In this document: positions 38,673 through 56,274 of the stretch, piece after piece
Layout of the letters: each line of letters opens with the position of its first letter
Position numbering within the stretch: position 1 is the first letter of the stretch
Origin: Mesotaenium endlicherianum
Lineage: Eukaryota
Assembly: GCA_009602735.1 (NCBI GenBank)
Contig: WELA01001451.1
Location: 24,080-80,353 of the forward strand
Length of the DNA stretch: 56,274 bases
Direction of reading: 5' to 3'
The notes under the pieces: model-generated
What the model was told of the DNA's origin: nothing
What the model saw: the letters and a program-made list of their open reading frames with translations, nothing else
Databases searched by the model: none
Made by a program: the position numbers and the translations under genes

Positions 38673-41600
38673 CTAGCTCAAACTGGATGGAGCAGCTCCA
38701 TTATCCTTCTTATCAGTGACACCTGCCTTCTCCTTCCCAGTGTCCTTCTTGTCAGCCCCGCTCGCACCCGACTTGTCCTTCCCGTTGTCTTTCTTGTCGG
38801 CCACGCTGGCCTTCTCCTTTCCGTTGTCATTCTTCCCGCGGCTGCTCCCGCTCTCCTTCTGCTCCTTCTCCTTCTCCTTCTTCTCCTTGGCGTTCTTCTC
38901 CTTCTCCTTCTGCTCCTTGGTCCGGTGCTGCGGCTTGAAGCCGAATATGTTTGCGACTCTCTCCACACCCTTCAGGAAGAAACCTGAGAACCCCTGGGGA
39001 GGGGCGGGCGGGGGAAACTCTGACGCCGGCATCGCAAAAGGCCCCAACATCTTCTGGAGCGTGCCCAGAGTCAGGTAAGCGTTCGCCTCTTGCAGCGGCT
39101 CTGGCGGCAGCACGGGCAGCGTGTGGTCCCGATTCCTGGGCGAGACCTGATGGCAACCACGCCACAAGTGATTTCTCAACAAGGGGAGATTGTTGAGGTG
39201 ATTACCAAAAGAGGCAGGCAAATTTTCCTGGGATTGACTCGAATGAAGTACAGAAAGGACAGTATGCGCAGATATGAAGCCAGCGTGCGTCTGTAGATGT
39301 TTTCCCACTCGGGTGCACAAAAGAGCATACGCTACGAACACACACGGACTAATTTGAAAAACCTGGCGTGATTACCTGCAAGGTACACTTCTTTCCAGAC
39401 AAGCAAGTGGCTTTCTTTTTCCCCGAGGAACAAATGCTGATAAGAAAGAGAAAAAGAAACAAAAAAACAAGAGACTATCCAAGTTGCCGTGTGACGTGCA
39501 ACACCCGAAACCAGACGAACCACTCTGAGGGACTATCACGAGGTCGGCCCGGCAGCACAGAGCCCAGGGCGAGGGAAGACAAAGGCAGTGAAGGCGAGAG
39601 CCCAGCCCCACCTCGAGGAGGTTGAAGCTGGAGCCGGGGCTGAACATGAGCTCGATGCGAAATCGCTTGGGGTCTGTCAGCTTCACCTGCAGCACAGCAG
39701 CAGCAGCAGTGCAGGGGCAGCATAGGCACCAAAGCGCAAGGGGGGGTCAGTCAGCTTCATCTGCACAGCAGCAGCGCAGGGGCAGCACAGGCGCCAAGCC
39801 GCAAGGGGGGGAGAGCGGCACTTTTCACTTCCCACCGCCACATTGAACGTCCAGGAGCCTCCTTCTGTGCTCCCCCTCCTGGGGCCGCCTCCTCACTCAC
39901 TGTGAGCTTAACCGGAAAACATAAACTCTGAGAAAAGTGGAGGCTCTGGCTTCTCCACTTGACTCGTGCTTGAGCAAAAAAACGGGAACTTTTTGGGAAT
40001 AGTGAAGCGTCTGTGATGTAGAACCAGGAAGTTTGGGCTCCCGTGTTGTGCTTTTGAGGCCCGACGATTCCGAGCTGTCGCCTACCCTTCTCTCGTATCA
40101 CCTCCGCTCGGGTCTCATTACATGGGCCTCGAGATGCCATCTGTCCGGGATACCAAAAGGTCCGGAAATGCCCTGGAAAATGAACTGGCCCACGTGTTTT
40201 GCACACAGCAATGATGGAACCTCCAGGAAGAAATTCAGCCCAGAAGATAGCCACGGAAGCCCCGTCTGCGTGGATCTGCACGCATCTGCCAGGTGGCACC
40301 TCAGCTTGCTCGGCTCACCTTACCTCACCTGACCTCGCCGTTCTTGCACATGCGGTAAACGACGTGCAAGAGGTTTGACGCTTAAAGTCCGCCAGGTGGC
40401 ATCAACTCAGTCAGCGCAACTCACCTCAGTGTTTCTCGTACACACGGAAAACGGCGTGTGCGTGGGTTCGGGTACGGGGTCTGCCAGGTGGCAGGAGGCC
40501 CAGCGCAGACGGCGCGGCTCACCTCGGTGTTCTCGTACATGCGGAAGACGACATGCGTGAGGTAGTCGAGCTCCTTGGTCTCGAAGAGGCGCCGCAGTGC
40601 ATCGTCCGAGATGAGCGCGCTCGAGTCCTGCTTCGTCGCCTCGTCCAGGTAGCTGTAACGCAGCACGTTGATCAGCGAGTGGATGTGCGACTCCTGTTTA
40701 CTCGTCCCCCCCCCCATCGTTTTGCACAACATCGTAATTTCCCACGACATCGTAAATTCCCATGACCCAATGCCCCAAACCGCAACACGACGTCCAATGA
40801 CCCAGCGCCCAACAATCCAACGAGTACTCCCCCCCTCCCCGCCCATCCCCATCCCCATGCCGCAACCGCCCGCCCAACAAGCACACACAGCGAAACAGAC
40901 AGCAACATCAGCGATGCAATCCCCCGGGGCCCGCTGTTGCAAGTGTGAGGAGGCATGTTGCAGGGCGTAAGCATCCTGACACACCAAGTGGGCAGGTGTG
41001 CTAGTGGAGTCGTCGAAAGAGCAGGCGGGGTGCTGTTATAAATTTGAGGAACGGAGCAATGCGAAGGAAAAGGCCTCTCCGTGGTGACCTACTAACTTGG
41101 AGGAGCCAGCAAACCATCCACCCACCCAGAGATGTGACCATCTGGTGATGGTGGCTGCTATACAGGGACACATGGCGAGACAAGAGGGCCCAACATCAAG
41201 ACGTCGCTGGTCTGCAAAGCAAGGACTCCCTAAAAGCACAGCCACAGGGGAAGGATGGCGGCAACCACCCTTCTGTTGCCGCAAGAGCTCTTGCTGCAAC
41301 TGAAGAACCACAGCGGCAGGGCAGCAGGCAAGGCCCGCCCGCCCCGCGCTCCTGCAAGCTGCCAACATCGCCTTTGCCCTCCTTTTTATATTTCCCGACA
41401 ACAAGTGGCAGGCACGTGTCTCATGAGGGTAACAGTGGGAAATGGGGCCATGGCGAGGAAGAGAAGGTAGGGCCCCAGTGAGGAAGCGAGAAAGCGCGGA
41501 GAGGGGGGTAAAGGGGGGGGAGGGNCCCCCAAGCCTCGTGCGCGTGCGTCAGTATGGCTCGCGTTCTATTACTTAAAGCCTAGTCTCCCGCCATTCTGGT

Positions 41601-42515
41601 CCTCGAGGGGCAGGAAAACATGGAGAAAGAGCTGGTCAAGCAAGGAGAGAGAGCCACAACCCAGCTGCCAGAGAGCGCACTGTATATTTGCATAGGGCTG
41701 GCTTTCCCCCACGTCTCTACTCTAAGTTTGTAAGAATGCATCGGATTGACAACGCCTGTGCCAGCTGTTGAGACTTGAAGCCGAAACCGCAAGGCCCATG
41801 GGCAGCAGCACCCCCGATAAACACAAAGTTGTAAAACCTCCTGTACTTTCAAACAGACACTAGACAGAGCGTGAGAGCCGGCGGTGCCACCCGACCACAT
41901 GATTGCGAGCCACGGCAGCAGGCAGCGGGCGCGGCAGGGGGGCCGCAGGCGGCACCGGGCGGCAGGAGGCGGGCGGCGGGCAGGGCGGCAGGGCGTGCTC
42001 ACTTGGGGTCGAGGCGGTACGACGTCTCGATGTCGCTGTCCTCGTCGGATCCCTTGTCACTCTTCTGCGACTGCGACTCCGACAGCTGGCGCTTGTCGCT
42101 GGAGGTGCGGCGCGGGTGCGGGCGCAGCAGGTCGTCCATGGTGGAGCGCCGCGTGAGGTGCTCGCGGTCGCGGCCCTTAGGCGCGCCCTTGAGGGCCTCC
42201 ATGGCCATGCCCACCTCCACAGCCTCGTTGAGCGTGTTCTGCATGTCGATGAGGATCTTGCCCAGCAGCCGGTGCGCAATCTGGCATGGGGCGCGCGCGC
42301 GGGGGTAAGGGGTGTCGACGTGCGTGCGCGCTCGCGCGAGCGGAGGGACCAAGTGAGTGCGTGCGTGCGGATTGGAGAAGTGCACGCATGTGACGGCACA
42401 AACAAGGACATGAATTGGCACACGCATCATTTGTATGCGTGCGGCCGTGCACGCGCATGCACACACACACATACACGAACGAGTACACACACACACACCC
42501 CCCACACACAAACAC

Positions 42516-42546
<31 letters not shown>

Positions 42547-45087
42547 GAAGCACACATACAAGGTGGAGGCATTTAGCAATGAAAAGACACAATCTTTCCT
42601 CCAAGACGTGCACTCAGTAACAGATGTCAGGATCACGTGTGTGAGTGCTCCCCACCCACACACGCACAGGAAAAATACACTCACAGACAAATGAACACAC
42701 ACCTATAGTATACATGCACGCGTGAAGGCTTCCCGTACACTCTAAATACACTCACATGAGATGCTTTTGCATACTTGGCACATCCACTCAGACATGCCCC
42801 AATCCTAGTCACGGCGCCACGGGACAGCCACAGCACAGTCTCGCCACTGCCACCATGCTGTTGACAACCAAGGTGCAAAGCGTTTTCCATCCATCTCTCC
42901 TTTCATAGCCTCCTCACACACTTACAGAGGTGGCCGCCACATTCAGAAGGAGCCGCTGTCCTGAGCCCAGGGACGCAGAACGACGCCAGCGCACCAGGGA
43001 GAACTGCCCAATCTGTCCCCCCTATGCTCGAGCTGTGCTCGACAGGCAGGCAAGTGCCGCCGCGAGCCTGCACTGCACTGCACACTGTGTCGTGCCGTGA
43101 CGTGTCGCGAACCTGGTGTTCAGGCCATGTGGCGGTAACAGGTGGCATGCGGCGCGCAGGAGCCGTACCTTGGAGCCGATGTCCACCTTGGACTGGGGGT
43201 TGATGCCGTACTCGTTGGGGATCACGCCGTCTGCCAGCGCCTGCTTGCTCGTTGGAGGAGGGGAAGCGAACACGCCACAGCCACAGCCACAGCCACAGGC
43301 GCAGTTGCAGCCAGAGCCACAGCCACAGCAACAGCCATCACGCAGCGAGGGCACAGACGACGGGGAGGAAGGGAGTGGACGTTGAGAGTGCGCCACTGCG
43401 AGCTATGAGCTGCCGAGCAGCGCAAGCACACAAGACACTCAAGCAAGTGGCCTATGGGCGCAGAGCAAGCTGAAAGGCGAGGCAACAGTGCAGTCCTGCA
43501 TACCAGCAGCAGAGCGTCTCGCAGCAGCAAGGGGTGTGGATCTTATGGAGAGGCGGGAGGGGGAGAAAGCGCCGCAAAAACACGAGGTCGGCACACCTGT
43601 GGCCTGATTGATACTCAGGGAGAATAAGACGGGAAGTGAATTGCACCCCGGTTTCAGAACTCAGCCCTGACACAGGACGATGCGAAGATGCCCTTCACGC
43701 CGGCTCGGGTCTCAAGAGGGGAGGATTCGAGCCTGAGGGGACACTTTGACTCCTTGTGAGACAGCCTATGAGACGCTTCAGGCCTTCTTGTGGGACACTA
43801 CTGCTCCTCATGGGGCAGCGTAGGAAATCCTTCAAGCCTTCTTTTGGGACGCCTTCAAGAAACCCCCGGCTTACTGAGGAGCTCCAGGAAAGCCACAGGA
43901 CCCTCGAGGGGCAGCCAGGGGCCACAGAAGGCTCCTGCAACGGGGGACGCCTACAGGAGACCAGGCGCAGAGTATGTCACCAGACGCACACTCTCAGCTT
44001 ATGAAGGGAGAGCCTAGAGCCCCAAAGAATGTAGTAAGCCTTCAGGACGGCTCCGGACGCCACGGAAATACAAGGGGAAGAAGGGAGAGACGGGTAGAGA
44101 CCGGTGGAGGGAGGGAGGCAGGCAGGCAGGGAGAGAGGAAGTGCTGGGTGTTGGTGAGTGGGTAGGGGAGGGGGTAGAGGGGTAAGGCGGGAGAGGAAGA
44201 GGGCAAGGCGCGCACCTTGACGACGTTGTAGAGGTCGTCCAGCCCCGTCAGCTTCAGGTGCTGGTTGTGCAGCAGGTCGTACCTGGCACCCACGCACGCA
44301 CGTGCGTGCGGGCGGGCAGGCGGGCGGGGGGGGGGGGGAGAGAGATACGGACCAAGAGGGTTAAGACCCTCGTATGGACAGAGTCAGTGGCGGTGATACA
44401 GTGACAAGCACGAGCTGAGCCTTCCAGAAGGCGCAAGAGTGAGAGGAGCAAGTGCACGGGAGGGCACACAGCCCCGCAGAAGCAGGAGCACGAGCAGCAA
44501 AATCAGCAGCAGCAGGAGGGCAGCAGCGTGCGGGCACCGACAACAGCCTTGGCACGCCGGGACAGCAAGCAGGCGGGGGAGGGAAAGAGGTTGGAAAAGG
44601 GGGGCAGGCGAAATGAGAGGGGGGGCTGAAGGACGCACTTGCAGGAGTCGTAGATGTCAGGAACCTTGCTGATGTTGTAGCGGCTGTTTTTTTTCCTCCC
44701 ATCCCCCGCCCCGCCCCGCCACGTCCCCACGAAACGAATAAGACACAGCCCATTTCCCGCAGACCGAGTTAGCAGAAGAGCGCGTCAGCACGCCGCTCAG
44801 GCTGTCTTCTGCCTCTCACCCTCTTCCAAGACATCATGTCCTGCAGCTCTTCTGCGCCACAAGAGACCCGCGCCTTTTCCAAGCACAGAAATCCTTCAGC
44901 ATTTTCCCCTACCGCACTCCCACTCCACCGGGGGAGACAGAGGCTTTGCTCTGACCCAAACCCGGGCACAATCCCTAGAATACGGCACCTCCTACCTTCC
45001 CCCCAAGTGCAACCCGCACTTCACTCTCCATACTGAACGCGACATTGCAGCAGCAGCAGCAGCAATTGAGGCAGCATCGATAGCGAT

Positions 45088-45120
<33 letters not shown>

Positions 45121-45144
45121 GGGGGAGAGGGAGGGGGGGGGGGN

Positions 45145-45196
<52 letters not shown>

Positions 45197-46111
45197 GAGC
45201 AGCGGCAGTGGCGTGCGGTGTGATGACGCACTCTTTTCGCTCGTTGTAGATGTCGTTGTCGAGCTTCTTCCAGCGCGCAAACATGAGGAGGAAGCCCTCG
45301 GTGCCACATGGCAGGCCGGCGGCGATGCGGTCCTCGTCCAGGCGGGCCTTGCCCAGCAGGCGCGCCGTGTCGTACGACGGGATTGCCTCCTGGACAGGTG
45401 GAGCGCCCCCGGCCACCATCGCGTCCTCCTCGTCCTTGCAGAGCTCCTTCACTTGCGCCGTCACATTCCGCGTCAGCTCCGCCTGCGCCGCCCCGCGAGT
45501 CGCCCACCAAAGGGAGAAAGCACCACAAGAGCAGAAGCTTGAGCATGCCAACGCTCCTGTAGCAGAAAAAGTTCTCCAGAGAGTCAGCCCTGGGGGCCAG
45601 CTGTCACGTTCCGCGTCAGCTCCGCCTCCGCCGCCCCGCCAGTCACTAGAGAAGACAAATCACCAAGGGAGCAATCGAGGCTTTGTAAGCAGCAGAAGCA
45701 TCCCAAGGGGTCGTCGGGGGGCGCCAGCTATCAGGTTTCGCATCGGGCACCGCAGAAGACGTGCTCAGCAGCTCATTGATGCCACCACTCCATATGCAGC
45801 AGAAACATCTCAAGGAGTCAGTCCAGGCGAACAGCTGTCACAATCCGAGTGAGGTCCGCATGCGCTCCCGCCAGTCATCACAGAAGCAATAAGCAGAAGC
45901 GAAAGCAGAAGCAGAAGCAGAAGCAGAAGCACAATCAGAATCAGAAGCAGAAGCGGAAGCAGAAGCGGAAGCGGAAGCAGAAGCAGAAGCAGAAGCAGAA
46001 GCAAATGCCATCGCTCCTGCAGCAGAAGAAGCATCCCAAGGGACCGGTCCAGGTGGTCAGCTGACGACCTAGCAGTGGCCGCAGAAACAGAAGAAGCACG
46101 CCAATGCTCCT

Positions 46112-46142
<31 letters not shown>

Positions 46143-49100
46143 AAGAAGAAGAAGAAGAAGAAACATCCCAGGGGTCAGCCCAGAGCCCGGGAAGGCAGCC
46201 CAGGGAGAGGGGAAAGAGCGATGGTTTCTCCAACAACACCAGCAAACAGCACCAGCAACAGCACCAGCCGCTGCGAGAGCGCCAGCACTTGCTCCTGCAC
46301 ACGAACCAGCACCAGCACCAGCACCGGTAGCGATAGCAGCGGCAACGAGCGCGGGACGAGGCAGTAGGTGCGCACCAGGCGTTTGAGGAGCGCCAGGCCG
46401 CTGGGCGGCAGGCCGCCGCCGTCCACGAGCCAGGGCTTCTCGGGGCTGGCGGGCTGCGGCAGCGATCCGTCGGGGCGCGTCATTATCTCGTACAGGCTCT
46501 TCTGCAGGCACGAACGCAGCAGAAGGAGCACGCACACCACTTACCACGTAAGAGTACGGGTCACGCCCCTGCTCGCTCTTCTGCCACGTGTCATGCGTCT
46601 AGTGCGTACTGTGCGACGCCTTCCGCTGGCAGGGGTGCAGCAGCGGACACGGCATTCATAGAAGAGAGAGAGAGAGAGGGAGAGAAAGAGAAGAGATAGA
46701 AAAATGCAAGCCCTTGCTCTCCCCGCCACAGGCCAATTCCGCCACGTGTCAAGGCCTGACTGCCCACTCGCATGCCTGCTGAGATCGGTTTGCCGGCTTC
46801 TGCCTTGGCCAGCTTGAAAGGAGAGACGAGCTCCTCATCTGAGTTTCGCCTTACCTCAGAGTGAAAGCACTAAGGCTCGGTCAGCTGGCTCGCGGGATGA
46901 CCACTCGAGAGAGCCAGCTTGAGAGACCTTCACCTTCCTCACTAAGTTAGTGCCCTAAACCCTGATCCCCCAACGCCCACTTTCATAGAGGGGGAGGCAA
47001 GTGACATCTAAACCAAAGCTTAGCAAGCTCCTCCTGCCAGTAGCCAGCCCGACACTGAGCGTCCCAGCACTTGGCCAGCATTCATTGCAAAGACAGCTGC
47101 ACTCTTTCTTCTGCACCTTTCAAACTTCGTCAGCATCTCTTTTTCATTCTCCTTGCCCTCCCCCCCACCATCTCCTCTCTGGGGGCAACAATGTTCTGGT
47201 CTCCCTGTTTCTCCATGTCGGAGAGATATTTCCCACATACAAGAAACAGGAGAAATAGGAGAAATAGGAGGAAAAGAACTGGGCCTACGCCACGCACTCG
47301 CCCACATGTACGTCTCTGCCTATCTTACATCTCAGACGAGGCGTTGCCATGTTTGCAAATTTGCGAGTGAGCGAGCCAGCGAGCCAGCAACTGAACAAGC
47401 GGGCTTGCTACGGCTTCTCCTCGACAGCCGTCCCTCTCCATCGTCTCACTATGCCGCCCAGGCCGCCAGGGGGACGTGCAAGAGGAAGCCACAAGAAAAA
47501 GTTGGGAGAAGGGCAACGCTGCTACCTCCTCAGTACTCCTGCAGGCATCCATAGATCAAAAGCACATCACAGTTGGCCTCTTTCACGCTCTCGCCTCATC
47601 CCTTTCCACTGTGCCTCTCCTTCACTCTTTCTCACTCTCCCTCTCTTGCTCTCTCCTGCTCACCTTCTGCTTCTCGATATCCTCGGAGGCAGTGTCGAGG
47701 CCGTCCAGCATGGGGGAGTCCTTGCTCACCAGGCTCACCTGCGCCTCCACTCCCCGCCCGCACCCGCACCCAGAGCCAGAGCCAGAGGTGGAGCAGAAGA
47801 ACCTGGTTAAGGTGCCAGAAATCTCGCGGGTGCAAACGCTTGCAGCGACAGTGCAGCGCAGAGCCAGTGCGCGCAAGAGCGCAACACTGCTTACGGCTGT
47901 GGCATCGAGCGGGGCGACACTCTGCAGCAGAAAAATGATATGATAGGTCTGATGTAGCAGCTCCGCATGCCAACAGAACAACAGACACGGGGCTAGCTGA
48001 CAACGGACCTGCAAGGGGAGGTGGCAACCTCTTCTTGGCGGAGCAAGGCTAGCAGGAGGAGGTAGAGGGAGGAGGGAGGAGGGAGGAGGGAGGGCCAGGA
48101 GGCGGGAGGAGAGAGGAAGAAGGGCAAGGAGGTGCGGAGGAGAGATGAAGAAGGTCGAGGAGGTGCAGAGGAGAGAGGAAGAAGGGCGAGGAGGTGCGGA
48201 GGGAGGAGGAAGGGCGAGGAACAGGGAGAAGGGAGAAGCGAGGGCGGGGGCGACGCACCAGGATGGGAGTGAGCTGGCCTTCCAGGTCGAGCAGCCCCTT
48301 GGCGAAGGCCGCCGCCGACATCTGCACAGACGCACGCACGCGTCGTACGGCACATCATGCAGCTCCCATCAGCCACCTCGCAAGGGCGCCAAGTCGTTGT
48401 TTTGTTGTGCAGAGACAAAGGAGGGTACGGGGACGGAAGAGAAGAGGGAGACATGGACAGCGGGGTGAGTTGAAAGACGGCTTGCTTGGAAGGCAAGAGT
48501 TGCTCTTCAAGGCGGGAAGTGCCGCTTGCAGCAGCTCAATCCAGGAGGTAGAGGAAGAGGTGCGGCTGACCTGGACGCGGCCCTCGTCAGAGCTGTAGAT
48601 CTTGAGATCGTGGCGGTACGTGCTGTGCAGGCGAATGAGCCCCGTGCCCTCGCCCGCTTCCACTGGGGAGCACACGCACAGGCACAGGCACGCACATGAA
48701 CGCGAACACGCACACGCACACAGGCACATGCAAGGGCACGCACACGGCACAGGCAAAGCAGCAGGTTGGACAAGGAGTCAGCACACAAGTCCCATTCCAC
48801 GACCGTATCAGCAAGAAAATGGGGCTGCCATGGCGCCGCAGCGCTTCAGTTGTGTGTGTGTGTGTGTGTGTGTGCGTGTGGGCGCGCGCGCGCGCGTGAA
48901 CATGCAAGCAGAAGGCCCGGGCAGGCCAAAGAGGGCAGAGAGCAGGATCCCTTGTCCATTCTTTCAAGAATCGTCAAATCAGAAGGAGTGCCAGTAAGAC
49001 TGGCAGCACTCAGCCCCTCACAGCCGGAGCTGCAGATAGGGACAGGGTGTCCGTGAGCATCGGATCTGAGCATCAGCAATGAGCATCAGCATCAAACATC

Positions 49101-49825
49101 AGCCTGAGCACCAACATTGCGTTGGCAGTCTGTCTCCAGCGCGTCGTCTGCTGCTGCAGCACACGGGGCACTATGAGCGGAGCAGCGAGGCACTCGGGAG
49201 GACGCAGGAAGGCGGGAAGGGGTGAGGCAGATGCGCGGGCAGAGGATAGAATGAGGGGATGGATGGGTGTGAGGGTGAGAGTGAGAGCGAAAGTGGCACC
49301 TGGATACATGTTGTTCCGGAATGTCCTCCCGAGTTCCTCAGCCTGCGTCGCCACCCCCACCCGGCACACGCACCGCATGCACGCACAGCAGCAATGATGG
49401 TACGCCAGCACATCTCTTTTTCTCTCTCTCCCTCCCTCCCTCCCTCTCTCCCTCCCTCGCTCCCTTGCTCCTCGCTCTCGCTCTCGCTCTCTCGCGCTTG
49501 CGCTCGCCTCCCTCCCTCCCTCCCTCCCTCCCTCCCCGTGTCACATGAAAGCATAGCTTCCGCAATCGAATAGGACCTTCTCCACCCAGCAGTGTAGCAC
49601 CAGCACACATGTCAACAAAGCAGTGAAGGAGTAGCTCCCCCACAAAGTTGGGTTTCCTCCATCCAGCAGCGGAGCACCAGTCAGAGCACGTCGTTACTCC
49701 TCTGATTACACAATGTCTCCTCCACTCATCTACCGTGACTCCTGACAACTACAACGCAGCTCACCAGCCACACTCAACCCGCCAGCGCAACACACAAAGC
49801 CATCTCTGCACATCTCTGCAGCAGA

Positions 49826-49856
<31 letters not shown>

Positions 49857-52800
49857 AGAGCAGTAGCAGCAGCAGCAGCAGCAAGAGCAGCAGGAGCAGG
49901 AGCAGCAGCAGCAGGAGCGGGAGCGGGAGCAGGAGTGACGATGCATACCTGCTTGCGGCCGGCGTGCGTGAGGACACCGCCGTACTTGAGCACCATGAGC
50001 GCCTCCGTGGGGCGCTCCTCCGTGGGGCCCCCGCTGCCATTGGGCCCCCCCTCTGCGCCGACGTCCTCCTTGTGCACCATGGCCCACTTCTGGGGCTTTA
50101 GCTGCGCCTTCCTGTAGATGCCCGAGAAGTGGCCACCCTGACTCCACGAGAGCGACAACAGAAAAGAAGCGGGAGGACATGCAGGCAGCCAGGTGAGTGT
50201 CAGACGGCCACGGCCAGTCAGTGGCGAGCGAGTCAGCCAGCCAGCTGCACCTTCCTCTAGATGCCCGAGAAGTGGTCCCCCAGGCACAATTCTAGAGCAG
50301 CAACAGCAGCAGAAGGAAGAGGAGGAGGAGGAGGAGGCAGCTGGGTGGGTGTCGGTCAGCCAGTCAGTGGGTGAGCAAGTCAGCCAGCCAGCTGCGCCTT
50401 CCTCCAGATGCCCGAGAAGAGCCCCCCCCCCCCCGCGTCACCACAAAACAAGCACGTTGTTGACACACCGGCAGGAGAAGGAGGAGGAGGAGGAGGCAGC
50501 CAGGTGGGGGTCAGTCGGCCAGTTGGTGAGTGAGTGAGCCCGTCTCCCCCAGCTGGGCCTTTCTGTGTGCCAGAGAAGTGCCCCCCCCAGGCACCACACA
50601 CCACAAGCGCAACAACAACAACAACAACGACAACAACAGTTGGAAGAAGCAACCAGTTGGTGGGTTGACTTGAGAAGTGCCCCCCCCCCTGGAGCAGAAG
50701 AGGCAGGAGGAGGAGCAGGAGGAGTAGGAGCAGGAGGAGGAGCAGGCGAGAGCAGGAGGGAGGGCCTGCAAAGGCAGCAAGAGTACGAGCGCATGCACGC
50801 ACGCGCGCGCACGCACCTCTTCTAGCACTGCTTTCACATGGCGCAGCTTCTCTGCATTCTCAAAGTCCTCGGCCTCGCTGTCGCTGTCTCTCCCTAACCT
50901 GCACACAGAAGAGAAGGACCCACTCAAGGCCCCACTCAGCCCTGAGCCAGCCTGCCAGTGAGCCAGCCGCCCCCCCCGGCACAGCAGCGCCCATGCAGAG
51001 GCAGATGGTGCGCTTGAAAGCAATGCTGAGACAGCACCTGTCACATTCTGGCAAACTATTTTCTCCAGGAGGCCAGCCAAATGCTGAATACTTTATCTGA
51101 GCCCTGCAAGAAATCAGGGACTGGGAAAGCTGACTCCTGCCCGACAAAGGTAGGAAGAGGGAGGGGAGTAACTGCTCCAGATCCCCTCCGCCCTCACTCT
51201 CGCTTTTTTATTCCTCGTGCACGCAAGAGCAGTCAGCATGTTGGCGAAAGAGTTTTGCGTGCTCGACAGCCAGGCCAGGGATGACAGCGGACGCCAGCGA
51301 GAGCACATGACAGGTGTTACTTGTGGGTGCCCGCCAGCTCTCTGCAGTTGACTTTGACGTGCTTGCAGCAGCAGGCAAGCTCGCACCAGCTCGGTGGGAG
51401 CAGCGGCAAGGGTGGGGATGCGAGAATAGGGGGGACAAGGGCAGGGCCTGGGGCGGCCCATCGGGGGGTGAGAGGCGCAGGAGCTGGAGTGCTGGATATT
51501 GTGAGAGTGATGTCTAATTAAACATATATTACGTGTATATATCTTTTGCATACTATTAAAAACTATATGTGTGAACGAGCACGACATACGGATTACTTAG
51601 ACAGCTAAAAAAGCTCAGGGGGTGTAGGGACATGGGGGGGGGGGNNNNNNNNNNNNNNNNNNNNNNNNNNNNNNNNNNNNNNNNNNNNNNNNNNNNNNNN
51701 NNNNNNNNNNNNNNNNNNNNNNNNNNNNNNNNNNNNNNNNNNNNNNNNNNNNNNNNNNNNNNNNNNNNNNNNNNNNNNNNNNNNNNNNNNNNNNNNNNNN
51801 NNNNNNNNNNNNNNNNNNNNNNNNNNNNNNNNNNNNNNNNNNNNNNNNNNNNNNNNNNNNNNNNNNNNNNNNNNNNNNNNNNNNNNNNNNNNNNNNNNNN
51901 NNNNNNNNNNNNNNNNNNNNNNNNNNNNNNNNNNNNNNNNNNNNNNNNNNNNNNNNGGGGGGGGGGGGGGGGGGTCTACGAAGATGCGGATTGAACGGCT
52001 TGGAGGGTACAGGGGGTGCTAGAAAGTTCAAGGGGGTCTCCTAGTGTAAGGGGCGTTGAGGAAATTGAGGGGGGAAAGAAAGAAAACAGAGGGTGTTTGG
52101 GGGGCCTGCTGCATGCCCCCTTACGACAGAATGACTGCTGTGGGCCCCCACGGGCTCGAGTTGGACTTGCTTGGGTGGCTGCGGGTGGGAATAGGGGTGG
52201 GGCTGGGGCTGGACCACACGCACTTGACAGAGGGCACAAGCATGCGGAGGGCGTCCAGGAGATCCTGCAGCTGCACCGCGCTCTTTAGCTTTGCCTGGAT
52301 GGAGAACGCCCACGCCCATAGCCACACCCACACCCCCCACAGTCACGCCCACGCCCACGCCCACGAGTGTGAGGACCCGGCCGTCTTAGCAGTGCAAGCC
52401 AGGTTAATAATGCTGGGGGAGTCATGTCCATGTCTGTGCACAACTTTTTGCCCATACCCGTGCCAGCAACTGCACGCGCGCCGCATGCACGTGCGCACAG
52501 AAATCGATGCAAACGAGGCAGAGGAGCAGGGAGACAGCGACGACAAGGGCCGTCCTTCAGATATACGTGCAGTGCCTTGTATGTGTGATGCTCATCCTGT
52601 ATCTTCAATGCTTGCAGGTCTCTGAATTGATGGTAGCCACAGAGCTCTGCGTTGAATTACAGTTTTATAACACAGTGCTGGAGTGTATCACGTGTACACA
52701 CATATACATGTTTCCATGTAGATATTCATGTATACCTACATGTAAATATAAGAATGTGTGTAAACGTGTGTAAGTGCCCACGTGTAATCTGCGCATGCAC

Positions 52801-55795
52801 TGGATGCAGTGTATGTCCGCACAATATACACATCACAGTCCAGAAGTGCGCACAAGAAGCCGTCATAACTAAAAAGCGAGAACGCCGCCCGCGCCGTCAC
52901 TCAGAGTGCGCACTGACTAAGAGCCAAAGGCACTAGAGCTATGCCGGCAGCAGAGCCTTGGCCCTCGGTCTAGCCCCAATGGCTGTGGGATAGAGAGGGG
53001 GGGGGGCTGCACCTCAGCGCGCGGCCTGCCTCCGTTGTACTTGAGCATGAGGTCCAGCAGGCGGTCCTGAGTCACTTTCAGCTTCACCTTCTGCTTCGGC
53101 GTGCGATCCCCACTGTAGAACCAACACGCACGCACGCATGCACGCACGCACAGGCACGCGCACGTGGCAGCGAGCGCACGTCAGCTTCTGAGGTCAGCAT
53201 GACACCATCAGTAGGAGGAGAGCACACAGCACCACAAACCAAGACCCTCCTCCTCCCTCCCTCCCTCCATCCATCCACCCCACCCTCCGTCCCTCCATCC
53301 CATGATCCGTCCCTCCGTCCCACCCACGGTCCCACCCTCCTTCCCCGTCAGTCTGCAGGGTGTGCGCATGGGCATTCAAAGCTAATGTCTAAATGAAGGG
53401 AAATCTCTGAGAGCTACAGCACAGCTCACAAGTACGCCGAGGTCAACTACTGCAGCTCCGCACCCACAACAAGCTAAACTGTCCAGCCCTCGATAACTCG
53501 CTGTTTCGGACGACGGCCGTGGTCCGAGTTCAAGTCCAGCAGCCCGCACGCATGCCGGGCTCACGCAGCGCAGCAGCGCAGCGGCGCGCACTCACTGCCG
53601 GATGACAGCAACCCGCATGCATTATCGGGCTCAAGCAGCGCAGCAGCGCGCACTCACGGCCGGATGACGGCAATGATCAGAGCCTAAGTCCAGCTCGCAT
53701 GCATATTTAGGCTCAAGCAGCGCAGCAGCGCGCACTCACTGGCGGATGACGGCGATGACGCAGCGGAGCTCCTCGCGCTGCCCAAAGGTGCTGGTGGGGA
53801 CGCTGCTCTGGCGCGTGAAGTCGGGGGACGTCTCCCCGATGCTCCACGGCAGCTTGTTGGGGAGCGGGGAGTACAGGTGCGGGGCGACCGTGCTGATCAG
53901 CATGCCTCTCAGAACACACGCCGCGTCGTCGTAGTACCTGGGGGGGGGNNNNNNNNNNNNNNNNNNNNNNNNNNNNNNNNNNNNNNNNNNNNNNNNNNNA
54001 GGGGAAGGGGTTGGGGAGGGGGATGGAAAGGGGAAGGGGAAAAAGGGGAGGGGGGAGGAGTGCAAGCAGGCAAGCAGGAGCAATGCAACGATTCATGAAT
54101 CAGGGCCTTTGGGCTGATGCCTGTCGACCATCTTTTGGGTCGGGGCATGTGATATGAAATTTGGTTTCAAAAGGTGGCCAGGGGACATCCACATACGCTG
54201 GTGCCACCTGTGCCAGTGGGCGTGGAAAGGTACTACCGGAGTAAATTGGTCTAACTCGGTTTCTACCGGTGTAAAGTGGTGCGAACGGGACTAAGTTGGT
54301 GTTGAAAGCAAACTTGCACGAGGGAAGAACCGTCACAACACAGGAGACAAAGCCACGGTATACCAGCAGTAATCAACAATAATGCGAGGGAGGAGAACAT
54401 CAAATGATTCACCCCACAGGGCGGCTTTTTCCCAGCGCAAATGGAATGGGTGCAAGGGGCCCTCCATGTTCAAACCTTCAGCCGCCCCCGTTATACACCC
54501 AGCTTGGGCTGCTCCAACCCTACATGCAAATTCAAAGCTCACACAACCCGGGATTCGGGTCTTGTTCCCTGCCCCCGCAATATATGGGGGTCCCACACAC
54601 ACCTATGTACTGCCATTTCCTGCCCTGCAATGGCCTGGCTTTGATAAGTTCTATCTTATTTCCATTTAATATGTTTAAGCCAAGCAAGGGCTCCAAGCAG
54701 ACCATGGCCGCAGAATTGTGCCGCGGGGGAATTTCATGAAAGGAGGCACTTGGGGCTAGAATTAGGTGTAGGGTTTAAGAGGCAAAGCAATGTGGCCGAC
54801 CGGATATGAGCACCGCAGGTTGTTCAACCCAAAGAGCTTCACATGAGAGGAGATGGTGGATGGGGGATCGATTCCTGCTCACAGGGTGTTCAGGTTAGGG
54901 TTTCGGTTTTGGGTTCTCCGCAAATAGATAGGGCTGGTGCGCGCTGCGCGCTGCGCGCCTACAGCCGGAATAATTTGCGCTCGCCAGGCTGTCTGCAGGA
55001 GAGCTTGTACCCTCAGCCCCTCAAGGAAAAAAAGGGAAGACTTGAGACTATAATAGTGCTGCTGCTAGCGTCGCGAGTCTGCATGTCGATCCTTCTTTCT
55101 ATTCGCGCTTCGAACCGCTTCTTGCCATCCGTTTGCTCGCTTCTCCTCGAAAAGTGGTCGACATTCAGCTCCCGGTTCTTGGATCTCATTGCCAACAAAA
55201 TTTACAAGAACTGTTCTTTGCCAATTTTGGGAAAAGCAAAAAGAAACCAAACAATGCAGTGCTGCAAGAGTGTTCGAGATGCAAAAATCAATGAACCTAA
55301 TCCAACACAGCATATGATACACACCACGCCACACCACGCCACGCCATGCGATGCTTGTCAGGACAGCCGCAGAGCAACACGGGCAGTCTCAATCGGGAGG
55401 AGCGGAGGACCGCAGAGGCCCGCAGCGGGGTGGGGCCTTACTTGTGGGAGTTCTTAACGAAACTCCACCCGTTCACATCACACACAAAAGACTTGCCATT
55501 AGAGCGCAAGAGATCAAATCCACAGACCTGCTCAAGAAGGAGGGGACACAGGCCGGAGTGAGATACTCACCCCCCTCCCCACCTTAGCCCCCCTCTGTCC
55601 AGCGAGGGAGGAGGACAAGAAGTTCGTAAAAAGTTTCTGAGAGAGAGCGAGAGAGAGTGTTGAAGGGAGATAAAGGCCGCAGACGTGGCAGAGGGAGCGC
55701 CTAGCTTACTTGTCAGAGTTCTTAACAAAGCTCCACCCGTTCACATCAACGACATACGACTTGCCTTTCAAGCGCATGATATCAAACCCACAGAT
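38673..55795 (-). CDS. VIP1: Bifunctional diphosphoinositol-pentakisphosphate kinase / histidine acid phosphatase (PPIP5K/VIP1/VIH), 5' part beyond right edge. Exons: [55795-55710 OR 55527-55442], 53937-53740, 53112-53013, 52294-52224, 50898-50817, 50137-49949, 49342-49300, 48662-48571, 48321-48259, 47738-47664, 46501-46376, 45482-45232, 44683-44639, 44282-44216, 43240-43169, 42280-42003, [one exon missing near 41525], 40693-40523, 39686-39612, 39146-38673
   Basis: CGFDLLR...[22 protein letters not shown] (ATP-grasp kinase), [20 protein letters not shown] (RHxxRxP phosphatase motif), [56 protein letters not shown] and RIELMFSPG. Phases are consistent except at the gap. Confidence 0.95.
45890..46160. 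repeat. (AAGCAG)n and (AAG)n microsatellites in PPIP5K intron
   Basis: Direct reading. Confidence 0.9.
55442..55527 (-). CDS. PPIP5K alternative exon B ([29 protein letters not shown]), closest to the canonical plant sequence
   Basis: 86 nt, GAGCAG acceptor, GTAAGG donor. Joins 53937 in phase (AA|G TAC TAC). Confidence 0.9.
55710..55795 (-). CDS. PPIP5K alternative exon A ([29 protein letters not shown])
   Basis: 86 nt, GAGCAG acceptor, GTAAGC donor, open frame, paralogous to 55442-55527. Confidence 0.8.
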
Positions 55796-56274
55796 CTGCT
55801 CATCGTGGCACAGGCCGCCGAAGAGGCGGGAAAAATCCCCAAGTCAAAAACAAAAAAAAAAAACCAAAAAAAATTTCCACCAAGTGAGTAACCATATGCG
55901 CAGTAAATCACAATTCTCATCACCTGCAACTATAGAATCAGCGGAAGGCATTACAACAGCTGCCCAGCCATGGCTCAGCCGAGAGACAGTGAGCATTCAC
56001 ACGTGGAAACATGACGCGAGGAAGTAATGACATGAGAAAAGGGGCTGGAGGAGGAGAAACACAAAGCGGAGGTTAACGGTGGACAGAGAGAGAAGAAGAA
56101 GAAAAGATGGAGGGGAGGTTGACGATGGAGGGAAAGGGAGAAGACAAATAGAGGCAGCGATGGAGAAATTGAAGGAGATGAGAGGTAAAACTAAGTGCAA
56201 CATTCTCGACTCTCCACACTCTACGCAAAACTCGGGGGCTGGTGTGCAATGGGCGGGACCCGCCGGGCGCGGGG

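What the first reader, a model, noticed from the sequence alone, without database searches (positions are those of the whole stretch)
55442..55795. Tandem duplicated, probably mutually exclusive exons swap the catalytic core of the inositol pyrophosphate kinase (PPIP5K/VIH)
Seen: two 86-nt exons 182 nt apart, each with its own GAGCAG acceptor and GTAAG donor and the same phases (0 to 2). They encode [29 protein letters not shown] and [29 protein letters not shown]. By my count 16 of 86 nt differ, giving 6 synonymous changes and 8 amino-acid changes, with no indels or stops. GFD and DVNG are kept in both. Including both exons shifts the frame and hits TGA inside exon B, and skipping both also frameshifts, so only one-or-the-other is productive. 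Both exons have lower GC3 than neighbouring exons. Established: this segment carries the metal/ATP-binding Asp/Asp/Asn residues of the ATP-grasp kinase domain that makes InsP8, the phosphate-status signal. Inference: one gene makes two kinase variants that may differ in ATP affinity or regulation, where angiosperms use paralogues (VIH1/VIH2). I know of no description of such a switch in this family, but I cannot search.
Basis: partly seen in the sequence, partly recalled or inferred. Interest (0 to 1): 0.9.

Follow-up and report, generated by a model that had tools for sequence, protein, structure and literature searches.

The report
Algal phosphate-signal kinase swaps catalytic exon
A green alga related to land plants carries two side-by-side copies of the exon for the catalytic core of its phosphate-signalling kinase and splices either copy into its messenger RNA, so one gene likely makes two enzyme versions, the rarer of which is predicted to hold ATP differently.

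Summary
Real and expressed. Two 86-nt homologous exons (A 55795-55710, B 55527-55442) encode the metal-binding hairpin of a PPIP5K/VIH kinase in a zygnematophyte alga. In 7 raw RNA-seq runs both join the same upstream and downstream exons: B→C 147 reads, A→C 48. Exclusivity is leaky: 32 reads join A to B (frameshift, stop in B), and the introns flanking the pair are partly retained. The A share does not differ between the six runs tested (p=0.75), so no regulated switch is shown. B is the canonical copy. A keeps all four ligand-contact residues and its changes are more conservative than chance (p≈0.004), but it puts Met at the leucine that sandwiches the ATP adenine in fission-yeast Asp1 (Met in 0 of 320 homologues). 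No second copy was found in relatives, with low power. The design, homologous mutually exclusive exons policed by reading frame, is well known in animals. I found no report for PPIP5K. The scan had no note on this gene, but noted the same design in octopus Ras and sea-urchin Argonaute. A functional difference is predicted, not tested.

The parts
55710..55795 (-). Exon A, 86 nt, phase 0 to 2; derived, minor copy of the kinase metal-binding hairpin (differs from B by V1I, L6I, L7M, S9L, N10K, F14Y, C16V, H28D)
   Evidence: Sequence; joined to exon C by 48 reads in 7 of 7 raw-read runs; upstream-exon loose ends in 62 reads from the 5 runs where a row is shown
55442..55527 (-). Exon B, 86 nt, phase 0 to 2; canonical, major copy, the one in the public gene model P0001
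   Evidence: joined to exon C by 147 reads in 7 of 7 runs; upstream-exon loose ends in 130 reads from 6 runs
55528..55709 (-). 182-nt GT-AG intron between A and B; can be spliced out (double inclusion, stop at 55475) or retained
   Evidence: 32 A-to-B junction reads in 4 of 7 runs; depth 1-28% of exon C in the four runs
53938..55441 (-). 1504-nt intron from B to C (holds a 51-N gap); partly retained
   Evidence: Joint 'skips 1504'; depth 6-16% of exon C in four runs
55796..56274 (-). 3' part of the intron upstream of the pair (upstream exon lies beyond the window); partly retained
   Evidence: Depth 2-33% of exon C in four runs; identical loose end at both acceptors
53740..53937 (-). Exon C, shared downstream exon (end of kinase domain, start of phosphatase motif)
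53013..53112 (-). Next constitutive exon; whole bins inside its two flanking introns have depth 0 (control for retention)
38680..52294 (-). Remaining exons of the PPIP5K/VIH gene (histidine acid phosphatase domain and C-terminus)
   Evidence: tblastn of P0001, P0006 and P0377 on the window; the 3' end is my reading of the sequence

Best explanation
The alga's PPIP5K/VIH gene carries a tandem-duplicated exon for the kinase's metal-binding hairpin and splices either copy to the same flanking exons, so it likely makes two active kinases, the minor one predicted to bind ATP differently. Shown: B is used in about three quarters and A in about one quarter of junctions into exon C; both-in transcripts also form and carry a premature stop; flanking introns are partly retained. 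Inferred: the reading frame, probably with nonsense-mediated decay, does the policing rather than a physical block; exon A has been kept functional by purifying selection; its Leu-to-Met change at the adenine-sandwich position, with Cys-to-Val next to the second metal ligand, shifts ATP affinity or turnover. Because PPIP5Ks balance kinase against phosphatase activity by ATP level, the two forms would have different InsP8 set-points.
For: Junction reads in 7 of 7 raw-read runs from three study codes: B→C 147, A→C 48 (A share 0.25, 95% CI 0.19-0.31); by distinct read starts 102 and 37. Same upstream loose end at both acceptors (130 reads at B, 62 at A). No skip-both joint or loose end among the rows shown. 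Exon positions 5, 17, 19 and 25 align with Asp1 Asp321, Asp333, Asn335 and Lys341 (alignments; roles from PMC9765450 section 8) and are identical in A and B. Position 7 is Asp321+2 = Leu323, which sandwiches the adenine with Val195 (PMC9765450 passage); it is L in 311, I in 9 and M in 0 of the 320 fetched proteins (of 399) that match the ungapped pattern. Selection on A: flank similarity between the copies is not significant (p 0.07-0.33) while the exons keep 70 of 86 nt with no indel; dN/dS 0.34; BLOSUM sum of the 8 changes +6 against a neutral mean of -7.5 (p=0.004), and positions 17-27 untouched without a stop in 0.5% of 50,000 neutral simulations. ATP level shifts the kinase/phosphatase balance of yeast Vip1 (PMC6731061 passages).
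Against: Exclusivity is poor: 32 of 80 junction reads leaving A go to B (0.40, CI 0.29-0.52). The A share does not differ among six runs (chi-square p=0.75) or between the two larger studies (p=0.68); sample conditions are unknown. Short reads do not show upstream-A-C on one molecule. All catalytic residues are the same in both copies and L-to-M is conservative. Seven of the 8 changes fall on the A side against only 6 synonymous differences shared between both copies, so dN/dS on the A branch alone could be near 1 (my inference); A scores below all 112 distinct family segments, which fits relaxed constraint as well as a new function. Keeping just the four ligand residues is not rare by chance (14%). 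No tandem copy in 80 of 80 metagenome loci, of which only 2 show this exon with intron boundaries; no A-type protein among the hits listed. No protein-level evidence.
Confidence: 0.5

Rival explanations
1. Exon A makes a working kinase that is functionally equivalent to the B form. It is kept intact only because a quarter of the mRNA uses it, and its extra changes reflect relaxed constraint on a minor isoform.
For: Constant A share across six runs. Six of 8 A states occur in other single-segment homologues (I1 in 24, I6 24, K10 30, Y14 102, V16 2, D28 20 of 112). Catalytic residues unchanged. No conservation found outside this species.
Against: Four changes hit columns invariant in 112 of 112 streptophyte homologues, one of them an adenine contact; such a cluster is unlikely to be kinetically silent (inference). 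Losing A's splice sites would be a simpler fate than keeping a copy that wastes many transcripts.
Confidence: 0.27
2. The pair works mainly as a dosage valve: double inclusion and intron retention divert transcripts to decay or nuclear detention and so set the amount of enzyme, while the A-form protein is a by-product.
For: 32 A-to-B reads; the three introns around the pair carry 1-33% of exon C depth while whole bins inside the next two introns carry 0; retention upstream of A is 27-33% in X10 and X11 but 2-5% in X13 and X14. Steady-state counts understate NMD substrates in worms (PMC13247117 passages).
Against: A poison exon would not need to keep a conservative, stop-free kinase sequence. 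The retention difference follows library type (PCR-selected 150-nt versus cDNA 100-nt libraries), and A-to-B use does not differ between studies (p=0.75).
Confidence: 0.18
3. Exon A is a decaying pseudo-exon and its junctions are splicing noise.
For: Lowest profile score among 112 distinct family segments; no homologue found; much double inclusion.
Against: A quarter of junctions into exon C in 7 of 7 runs; flanks decayed while the exon has no indel or stop; changes conservative (p=0.004) and positions 17-27 intact (p=0.005).
Confidence: 0.04
4. The pair is an assembly artefact (two alleles or paralogues stitched in tandem).
For: The window has N gaps, one in the B-C intron.
Against: RNA reads join A directly to B across the 182-nt intron and cover that intron; no letter differences are listed in either exon; both copies join an identical upstream and downstream exon.
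Confidence: 0.01

Closest known systems
Homologous mutually exclusive exons of the frame-shift/NMD class (Hatje et al. 2017, PMC5740500; passages read)
   Same: Equal length, same phase, homologous; each exon has reads bridging the other; length not divisible by three, so joint inclusion shifts the frame; joining reads are tolerated in that class (83 of 377 such human clusters have them).
   Different: Described there for human and fly genes. Here a streptophyte alga, and a high share of double inclusion (40% of junctions leaving A). PPIP5K terms gave 0 hits in that paper's 10 supplementary files.
MXE events at enzyme functional sites (Lam et al. 2021, PMC7954323; passages read)
   Same: Fold kept, variable residues at or near a small-molecule or catalytic site (9 events there affect catalytic residues).
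   Different: Those variable residues are mostly surface-exposed and chemically radical; here most are conservative and the catalytic residues are unchanged. The word 'plant' does not occur in that paper's main text.
Pyruvate kinase M1/M2 and ketohexokinase A/C exon swaps (recalled, from no call)
   Same: One metabolic kinase gene, two homologous exons, kinetic or allosteric differences between isoforms.
   Different: Those are tissue-regulated, conserved and biochemically proven; none of that is shown here.
PPIP5K/Vip1/Asp1/VIH kinases (PDB 3t7a, 8e1h, 9gr8; PMC9765450; PMC6731061)
   Same: ATP-grasp kinase plus histidine acid phosphatase; all metal and phosphate ligands in this segment are kept in both exons.
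   Different: No duplicated hairpin exon among the homologue proteins listed or the loci fetched; Arabidopsis uses two genes, VIH1 and VIH2. A review notes alternative splicing of human PPIP5K1/2 without naming such a swap in the passages seen (PMC13573052).
Predicted MXEs in Arabidopsis (Kassiopeia, PMC3923563; passages read)
   Same: Plant-lineage candidates for homologous MXEs (99 internal candidate exons).
   Different: Predictions described as preliminary; the paper says reports in plants are rare. The pair here has junction-read support.

Membership tests
Homologous mutually exclusive exons (Hatje 2017 criteria) | Neighbouring exons of similar length, same frame, homologous, own splice sites | tested here: met
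   86/86 nt, 70 of 86 identical, AG/GT at both
Homologous mutually exclusive exons (Hatje 2017 criteria) | Junction reads from each exon that bridge the other | tested here: met
   A→C 48 reads bridge B; upstream→B loose ends in 130 reads bridge A
Homologous mutually exclusive exons (Hatje 2017 criteria) | No joining reads, unless joint inclusion shifts the frame | tested here: met
   Met only through the exception: 32 joining reads, frameshift with stop at 55475
Strictly exclusive MXE (steric or spliceosome block) | Intervening intron cannot be spliced (donor to branch point under 50 nt, or U2/U12 mismatch) | tested here: not met
   The 182-nt GT-AG intron is spliced out in 4 of 7 runs
Docking-site/selector MXE | Competing RNA pairings with one shared site | tested here: inconclusive
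   Fold z -0.05; 12 duplex tests, best 3 of 60 shuffles, none shared by both exons; only 480 nt of the upstream intron are in the window and no relatives are available for covariation
Regulated MXE switch | Ratio changes with condition, tissue or stage | tested here: inconclusive
   A share 0.11-0.33 over 7 runs, p=0.75 over the six larger; counts small, conditions unknown
Conserved MXE | Pair shared by related species | tested here: inconclusive
   0 of 80 metagenome loci have a second copy, but only 2 show this exon with introns; annotated Closterium, Spirogloea, Chara and land-plant proteins listed are all B-type; eukaryotic genomes cannot be searched here
AS-NMD | Double-inclusion transcript rises when NMD is blocked | not testable with these tools
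   Premature stop far upstream of many later introns
PPIP5K/Vip1/VIH | N-terminal ATP-grasp kinase like human PPIP5K2 and Asp1 | tested here: met
   P0001 against 3t7a E=5e-123, 8e1h E=2e-98; exon peptides hit the same chains
PPIP5K/Vip1/VIH | C-terminal histidine acid phosphatase domain | tested here: met
   PF00328 precomputed on P0001; its exons map to the window
PPIP5K/Vip1/VIH | Metal ligands Asp/Asp/Asn and inositol-binding Lys in this hairpin | tested here: met
   Positions 5, 17, 19, 25 identical in A and B
PPIP5K/Vip1/VIH | InsP8 synthesis by each isoform | not testable with these tools
   Needs an enzyme assay

The most novel reading that the evidence does not exclude
A close algal relative of land plants tunes its phosphate and energy signal (InsP8) by splicing: one VIH gene makes two kinases with different ATP thresholds through a swapped adenine-pocket residue, and the choice, together with unproductive double inclusion, is set by phosphate or energy status.
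Probability: 0.2. Interest if true: 0.8.

Novelty: new member of a known kind. Interest (0 to 1): 0.52.

Why it matters
PPIP5K/VIH enzymes turn ATP and phosphate levels into InsP8, the signal behind plant phosphate-starvation responses. A natural isoform pair that differs only in the hairpin lining the ATP site is a ready-made test of how the ATP set-point of the enzyme is encoded. It is also a read-supported homologous mutually exclusive exon pair in the plant lineage, where the one source I read calls such cases rarely reported, and it is missing from the public gene model P0001, which has exon B only. If the isoforms turn out equivalent it remains a clean example of an old exon duplicate policed only by reading frame.

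Tried and rejected
No whole genome is held, so gene copy number and a genome-wide MXE background could not be tested. The run search listed no holder on record as RNA (not evidence either way); raw-read runs with the same species label were laid instead. Contig run X1 gave one 170-nt piece of the A-B intron only. Word-index search with exon A plus intronic codons: 1 candidate, none significant (weak). HMMER search of exon A against 1.84 billion representatives: 572 hits, best 150 listed, none above 85% identity; 50% clustering would hide an A-type isoform. Double hits checked and rejected as exon pairs: P0134 (partial repeat), P0135 and P0136 (unrelated repeats), P0287 (moth; broken first copy with interruptions). 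Docking/selector idea: an intron element at 54276-54289 complementary to both exons was no better than shuffles (16 and 49 of 60). A possible cryptic exon inside the A-B intron (pyrimidine tract plus CAG, then GTGAGT) has no joint. Single-sequence AlphaFold of P0001 was useless (pLDDT 33.7) and was not used. The profile-based neutral test (0 of 20,000) is biased because part of the profile was retrieved with exon A as query, so I rely on the BLOSUM test. Literature: 10 searches (only the top 3-30 rows of each were seen) showed no paper on such exons in PPIP5K/VIH/Vip1. Supplement searches for PPIP5K and fly gene names were blank in PMC7954323 (6 files, only 36,517 characters), PMC5740500 (10 files) and PMC8373072 (1 file). 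The Drosophila MXE survey (doi 10.1038/ncomms3460) is not held, so an independent pair in the fly orthologue is not excluded. bioRxiv supplements were closed.

Full report
Observation. On the minus strand two 86-nt exons, A (55795-55710) and B (55527-55442), lie 182 nt apart, each between TGAGCAG and GTAAG. They differ at 16 nt: 6 synonymous codons and 8 amino-acid changes, with no indel or stop. Either one joined to exon C (53937-53740) is open; both together stop in exon B at 55475. The peptides match only PPIP5K-family kinase chains at significant E-values in the PDB. Exon C finds P0001 at 98% identity, a record whose source name is jgi/Mesen1; I read that tag from memory as the zygnematophyte Mesotaenium endlicherianum. 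The next hits are Closterium and Spirogloea proteins. P0001 contains exon B only.

Expression. Seven of nine raw RNA-seq runs with the species label were laid, 6-24% of each being read. Junction reads B→C per run (X6, X9, X10, X11, X12, X13, X14): 2, 26, 37, 52, 9, 13, 8, total 147. A→C: 1, 12, 13, 14, 2, 5, 1, total 48. A→B: 0, 5, 7, 16, 0, 4, 0, total 32. Counted by distinct starts the totals are 102, 37 and 26. No skip-both product appears in the rows shown. So both exons are real and used, and an assembly artefact is excluded.

The exclusivity is leaky. Of 80 junction reads leaving exon A, 32 go to exon B (0.40, CI 0.29-0.52), so nothing physically blocks the 182-nt intron. The introns around the pair are also partly retained: relative to exon C, depth is 6-16% in the B-C intron, 1-28% in the A-B intron and 2-33% upstream of A in the four runs, while whole bins inside the next two introns are at 0. 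In the stranded runs these reads are sense. The higher values are in the PCR-selected libraries, so library type may explain the spread. Some A→B reads may come from nuclear intermediates. Folding and duplex tests gave no support for a docking/selector structure. The pair therefore belongs to the frame-shift class, which the criteria of Hatje et al. accept as mutually exclusive at protein level (PMC5740500 passages). Removal of double-inclusion RNA by NMD is inferred.

No switch was seen. The A share of junctions into exon C is 0.25 overall (CI 0.19-0.31), ranges 0.11-0.33, and is homogeneous over the six larger runs (p=0.75) and between the two larger studies (p=0.68). Counts are small and conditions unknown, so regulation by phosphate or light is neither shown nor excluded.

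Which copy is derived. Among 112 streptophyte homologues, positions 1, 6, 7 and 16 are invariant and match B; A differs at all four, and also at 9, 10 and 28, while at 14 A has the common Tyr. In a wider eukaryotic set of 112 distinct segments, six of A's eight states occur naturally; Met7 and Leu9 do not. Two genomic loci with land-plant-like sequence show the same 5' exon boundary and a matching 3' boundary with a single copy (L011, L018), so the 86-nt exon looks ancestral and the duplication lineage-specific as far as can be seen.

Selection. Similarity of the intron flanks of the two copies is no longer significant (p 0.07-0.33; a shared 9-mer upstream remains), while the exons are 81% identical. 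dN/dS between copies is 0.34 on few sites. Against 50,000 neutral simulations with 8 residue changes, the observed changes are more conservative (BLOSUM +6 against -7.5, p=0.004) and positions 17-27 stay intact without a stop in 0.5%. Against this, keeping only the four ligand residues happens in 14% of simulations, A scores below every family segment, and the A branch alone may have dN/dS near 1. My reading: A is kept as a working kinase segment under weaker or shifted constraint.

Structure. Aligning to fission-yeast Asp1, exon positions 5, 17, 19 and 25 are Asp321, Asp333, Asn335 and Lys341, the metal, gamma-phosphate and inositol-phosphate ligands (PMC9765450 section 8). All are the same in A and B, so the catalytic residues are not swapped. 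Position 7 is Leu323, one slice of the Val195-adenine-Leu323 sandwich (passage). Exon A has Met there, seen in 0 of 320 matching homologues (311 Leu, 9 Ile; 399 proteins fetched). Position 16, next to the second metal ligand, changes Cys to Val (Val in 2 of 320, Ile in 33). That position 16 also lines the nucleotide pocket is my recollection of ATP-grasp folds, from no call. ATP concentration shifts the balance of kinase and phosphatase in yeast Vip1 and ATP falls in phosphate-starved Arabidopsis (PMC6731061 passages), so a change in ATP affinity would move the InsP8 set-point. This last step is a prediction.

Relatives. A metagenome scan gave 469 confirmed stretches; the best 80 were kept and none has a second copy within the flank held, but most are intron-free at this place. 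Protein searches listed no A-type sequence. These tests have little power: close relatives are scarce (next best exon C identity 56-63%), gene models keep one exon, and clustering merges isoforms. One parallel turned up: Trebouxia proteins carry an optional 28-residue repeat of the helix that follows this same exon boundary.

What is known. Homologous mutually exclusive exons near functional sites are an established class in animals (PMC5740500, PMC7954323; passages), predicted but rarely reported in Arabidopsis (PMC3923563; passages). Ten paper searches and three supplement searches showed no such pair in PPIP5K, Vip1 or VIH; only top rows were seen, and the fly survey was not available. The scan's notes hold nothing on this gene or genome and list the same design in an octopus Ras and a sea-urchin Argonaute (unchecked).

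Verdict. A real, expressed, leaky homologous exon pair in a central phosphate-signalling enzyme, missing from the public gene model: a new member of a known kind. The adenine-pocket change makes a functional difference plausible and directly testable, but regulation, conservation and protein-level evidence are lacking. Interest 0.52; 0.8 if a regulated ATP-threshold switch is shown (probability about 0.2).

Noticed in passing
Proteins P0289, P0299, P0365, P0366, P0370-P0376 (Trebouxia): Eight members and both representatives shown carry or lack a 28-residue insert right after the boundary that ends exons A/B here; it repeats the kinase's C-terminal helix. P0371 has it and P0372, same locus tag, lacks it (P0373 also lacks it): an annotated in-frame cassette that would swap that helix, an independent event at the same junction.
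   Followed up: partly
window 38680-42002, minus strand: The public model P0001 ends at 42002, but Spirogloea and Marchantia homologues match further exons at 40693-40520, about 39686 and 39149-38850. About 20 residues between 42002 and 40693 find no match; that exon may lie in the gap marked by the single N at 41525.
   Followed up: partly
window 46235-46375, 43875-43940, 42772-42804, minus strand: P0001 includes stretches here that the two homologues do not match; probably intron sequence wrongly read as exon.
   Followed up: no
window 55789-55802 and 55521-55534 region, minus strand: Both acceptors are tandem (GAGCAG, NAGNAG type); loose ends show only the distal AG in use.
   Followed up: partly
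window 55528-55640, minus strand: The A-B intron holds a pyrimidine tract ending in CAG and, 43 nt before B's acceptor, a strong donor-like GTGAGT; no reads join these sites, but the donor-like site could weaken B's acceptor.
   Followed up: partly
window 53113-53165: Reads from another (GT/GC)-repeat locus are laid here with many other letters and loose ends; mapping noise, not variation of this gene.
   Followed up: no
   Followed up: no
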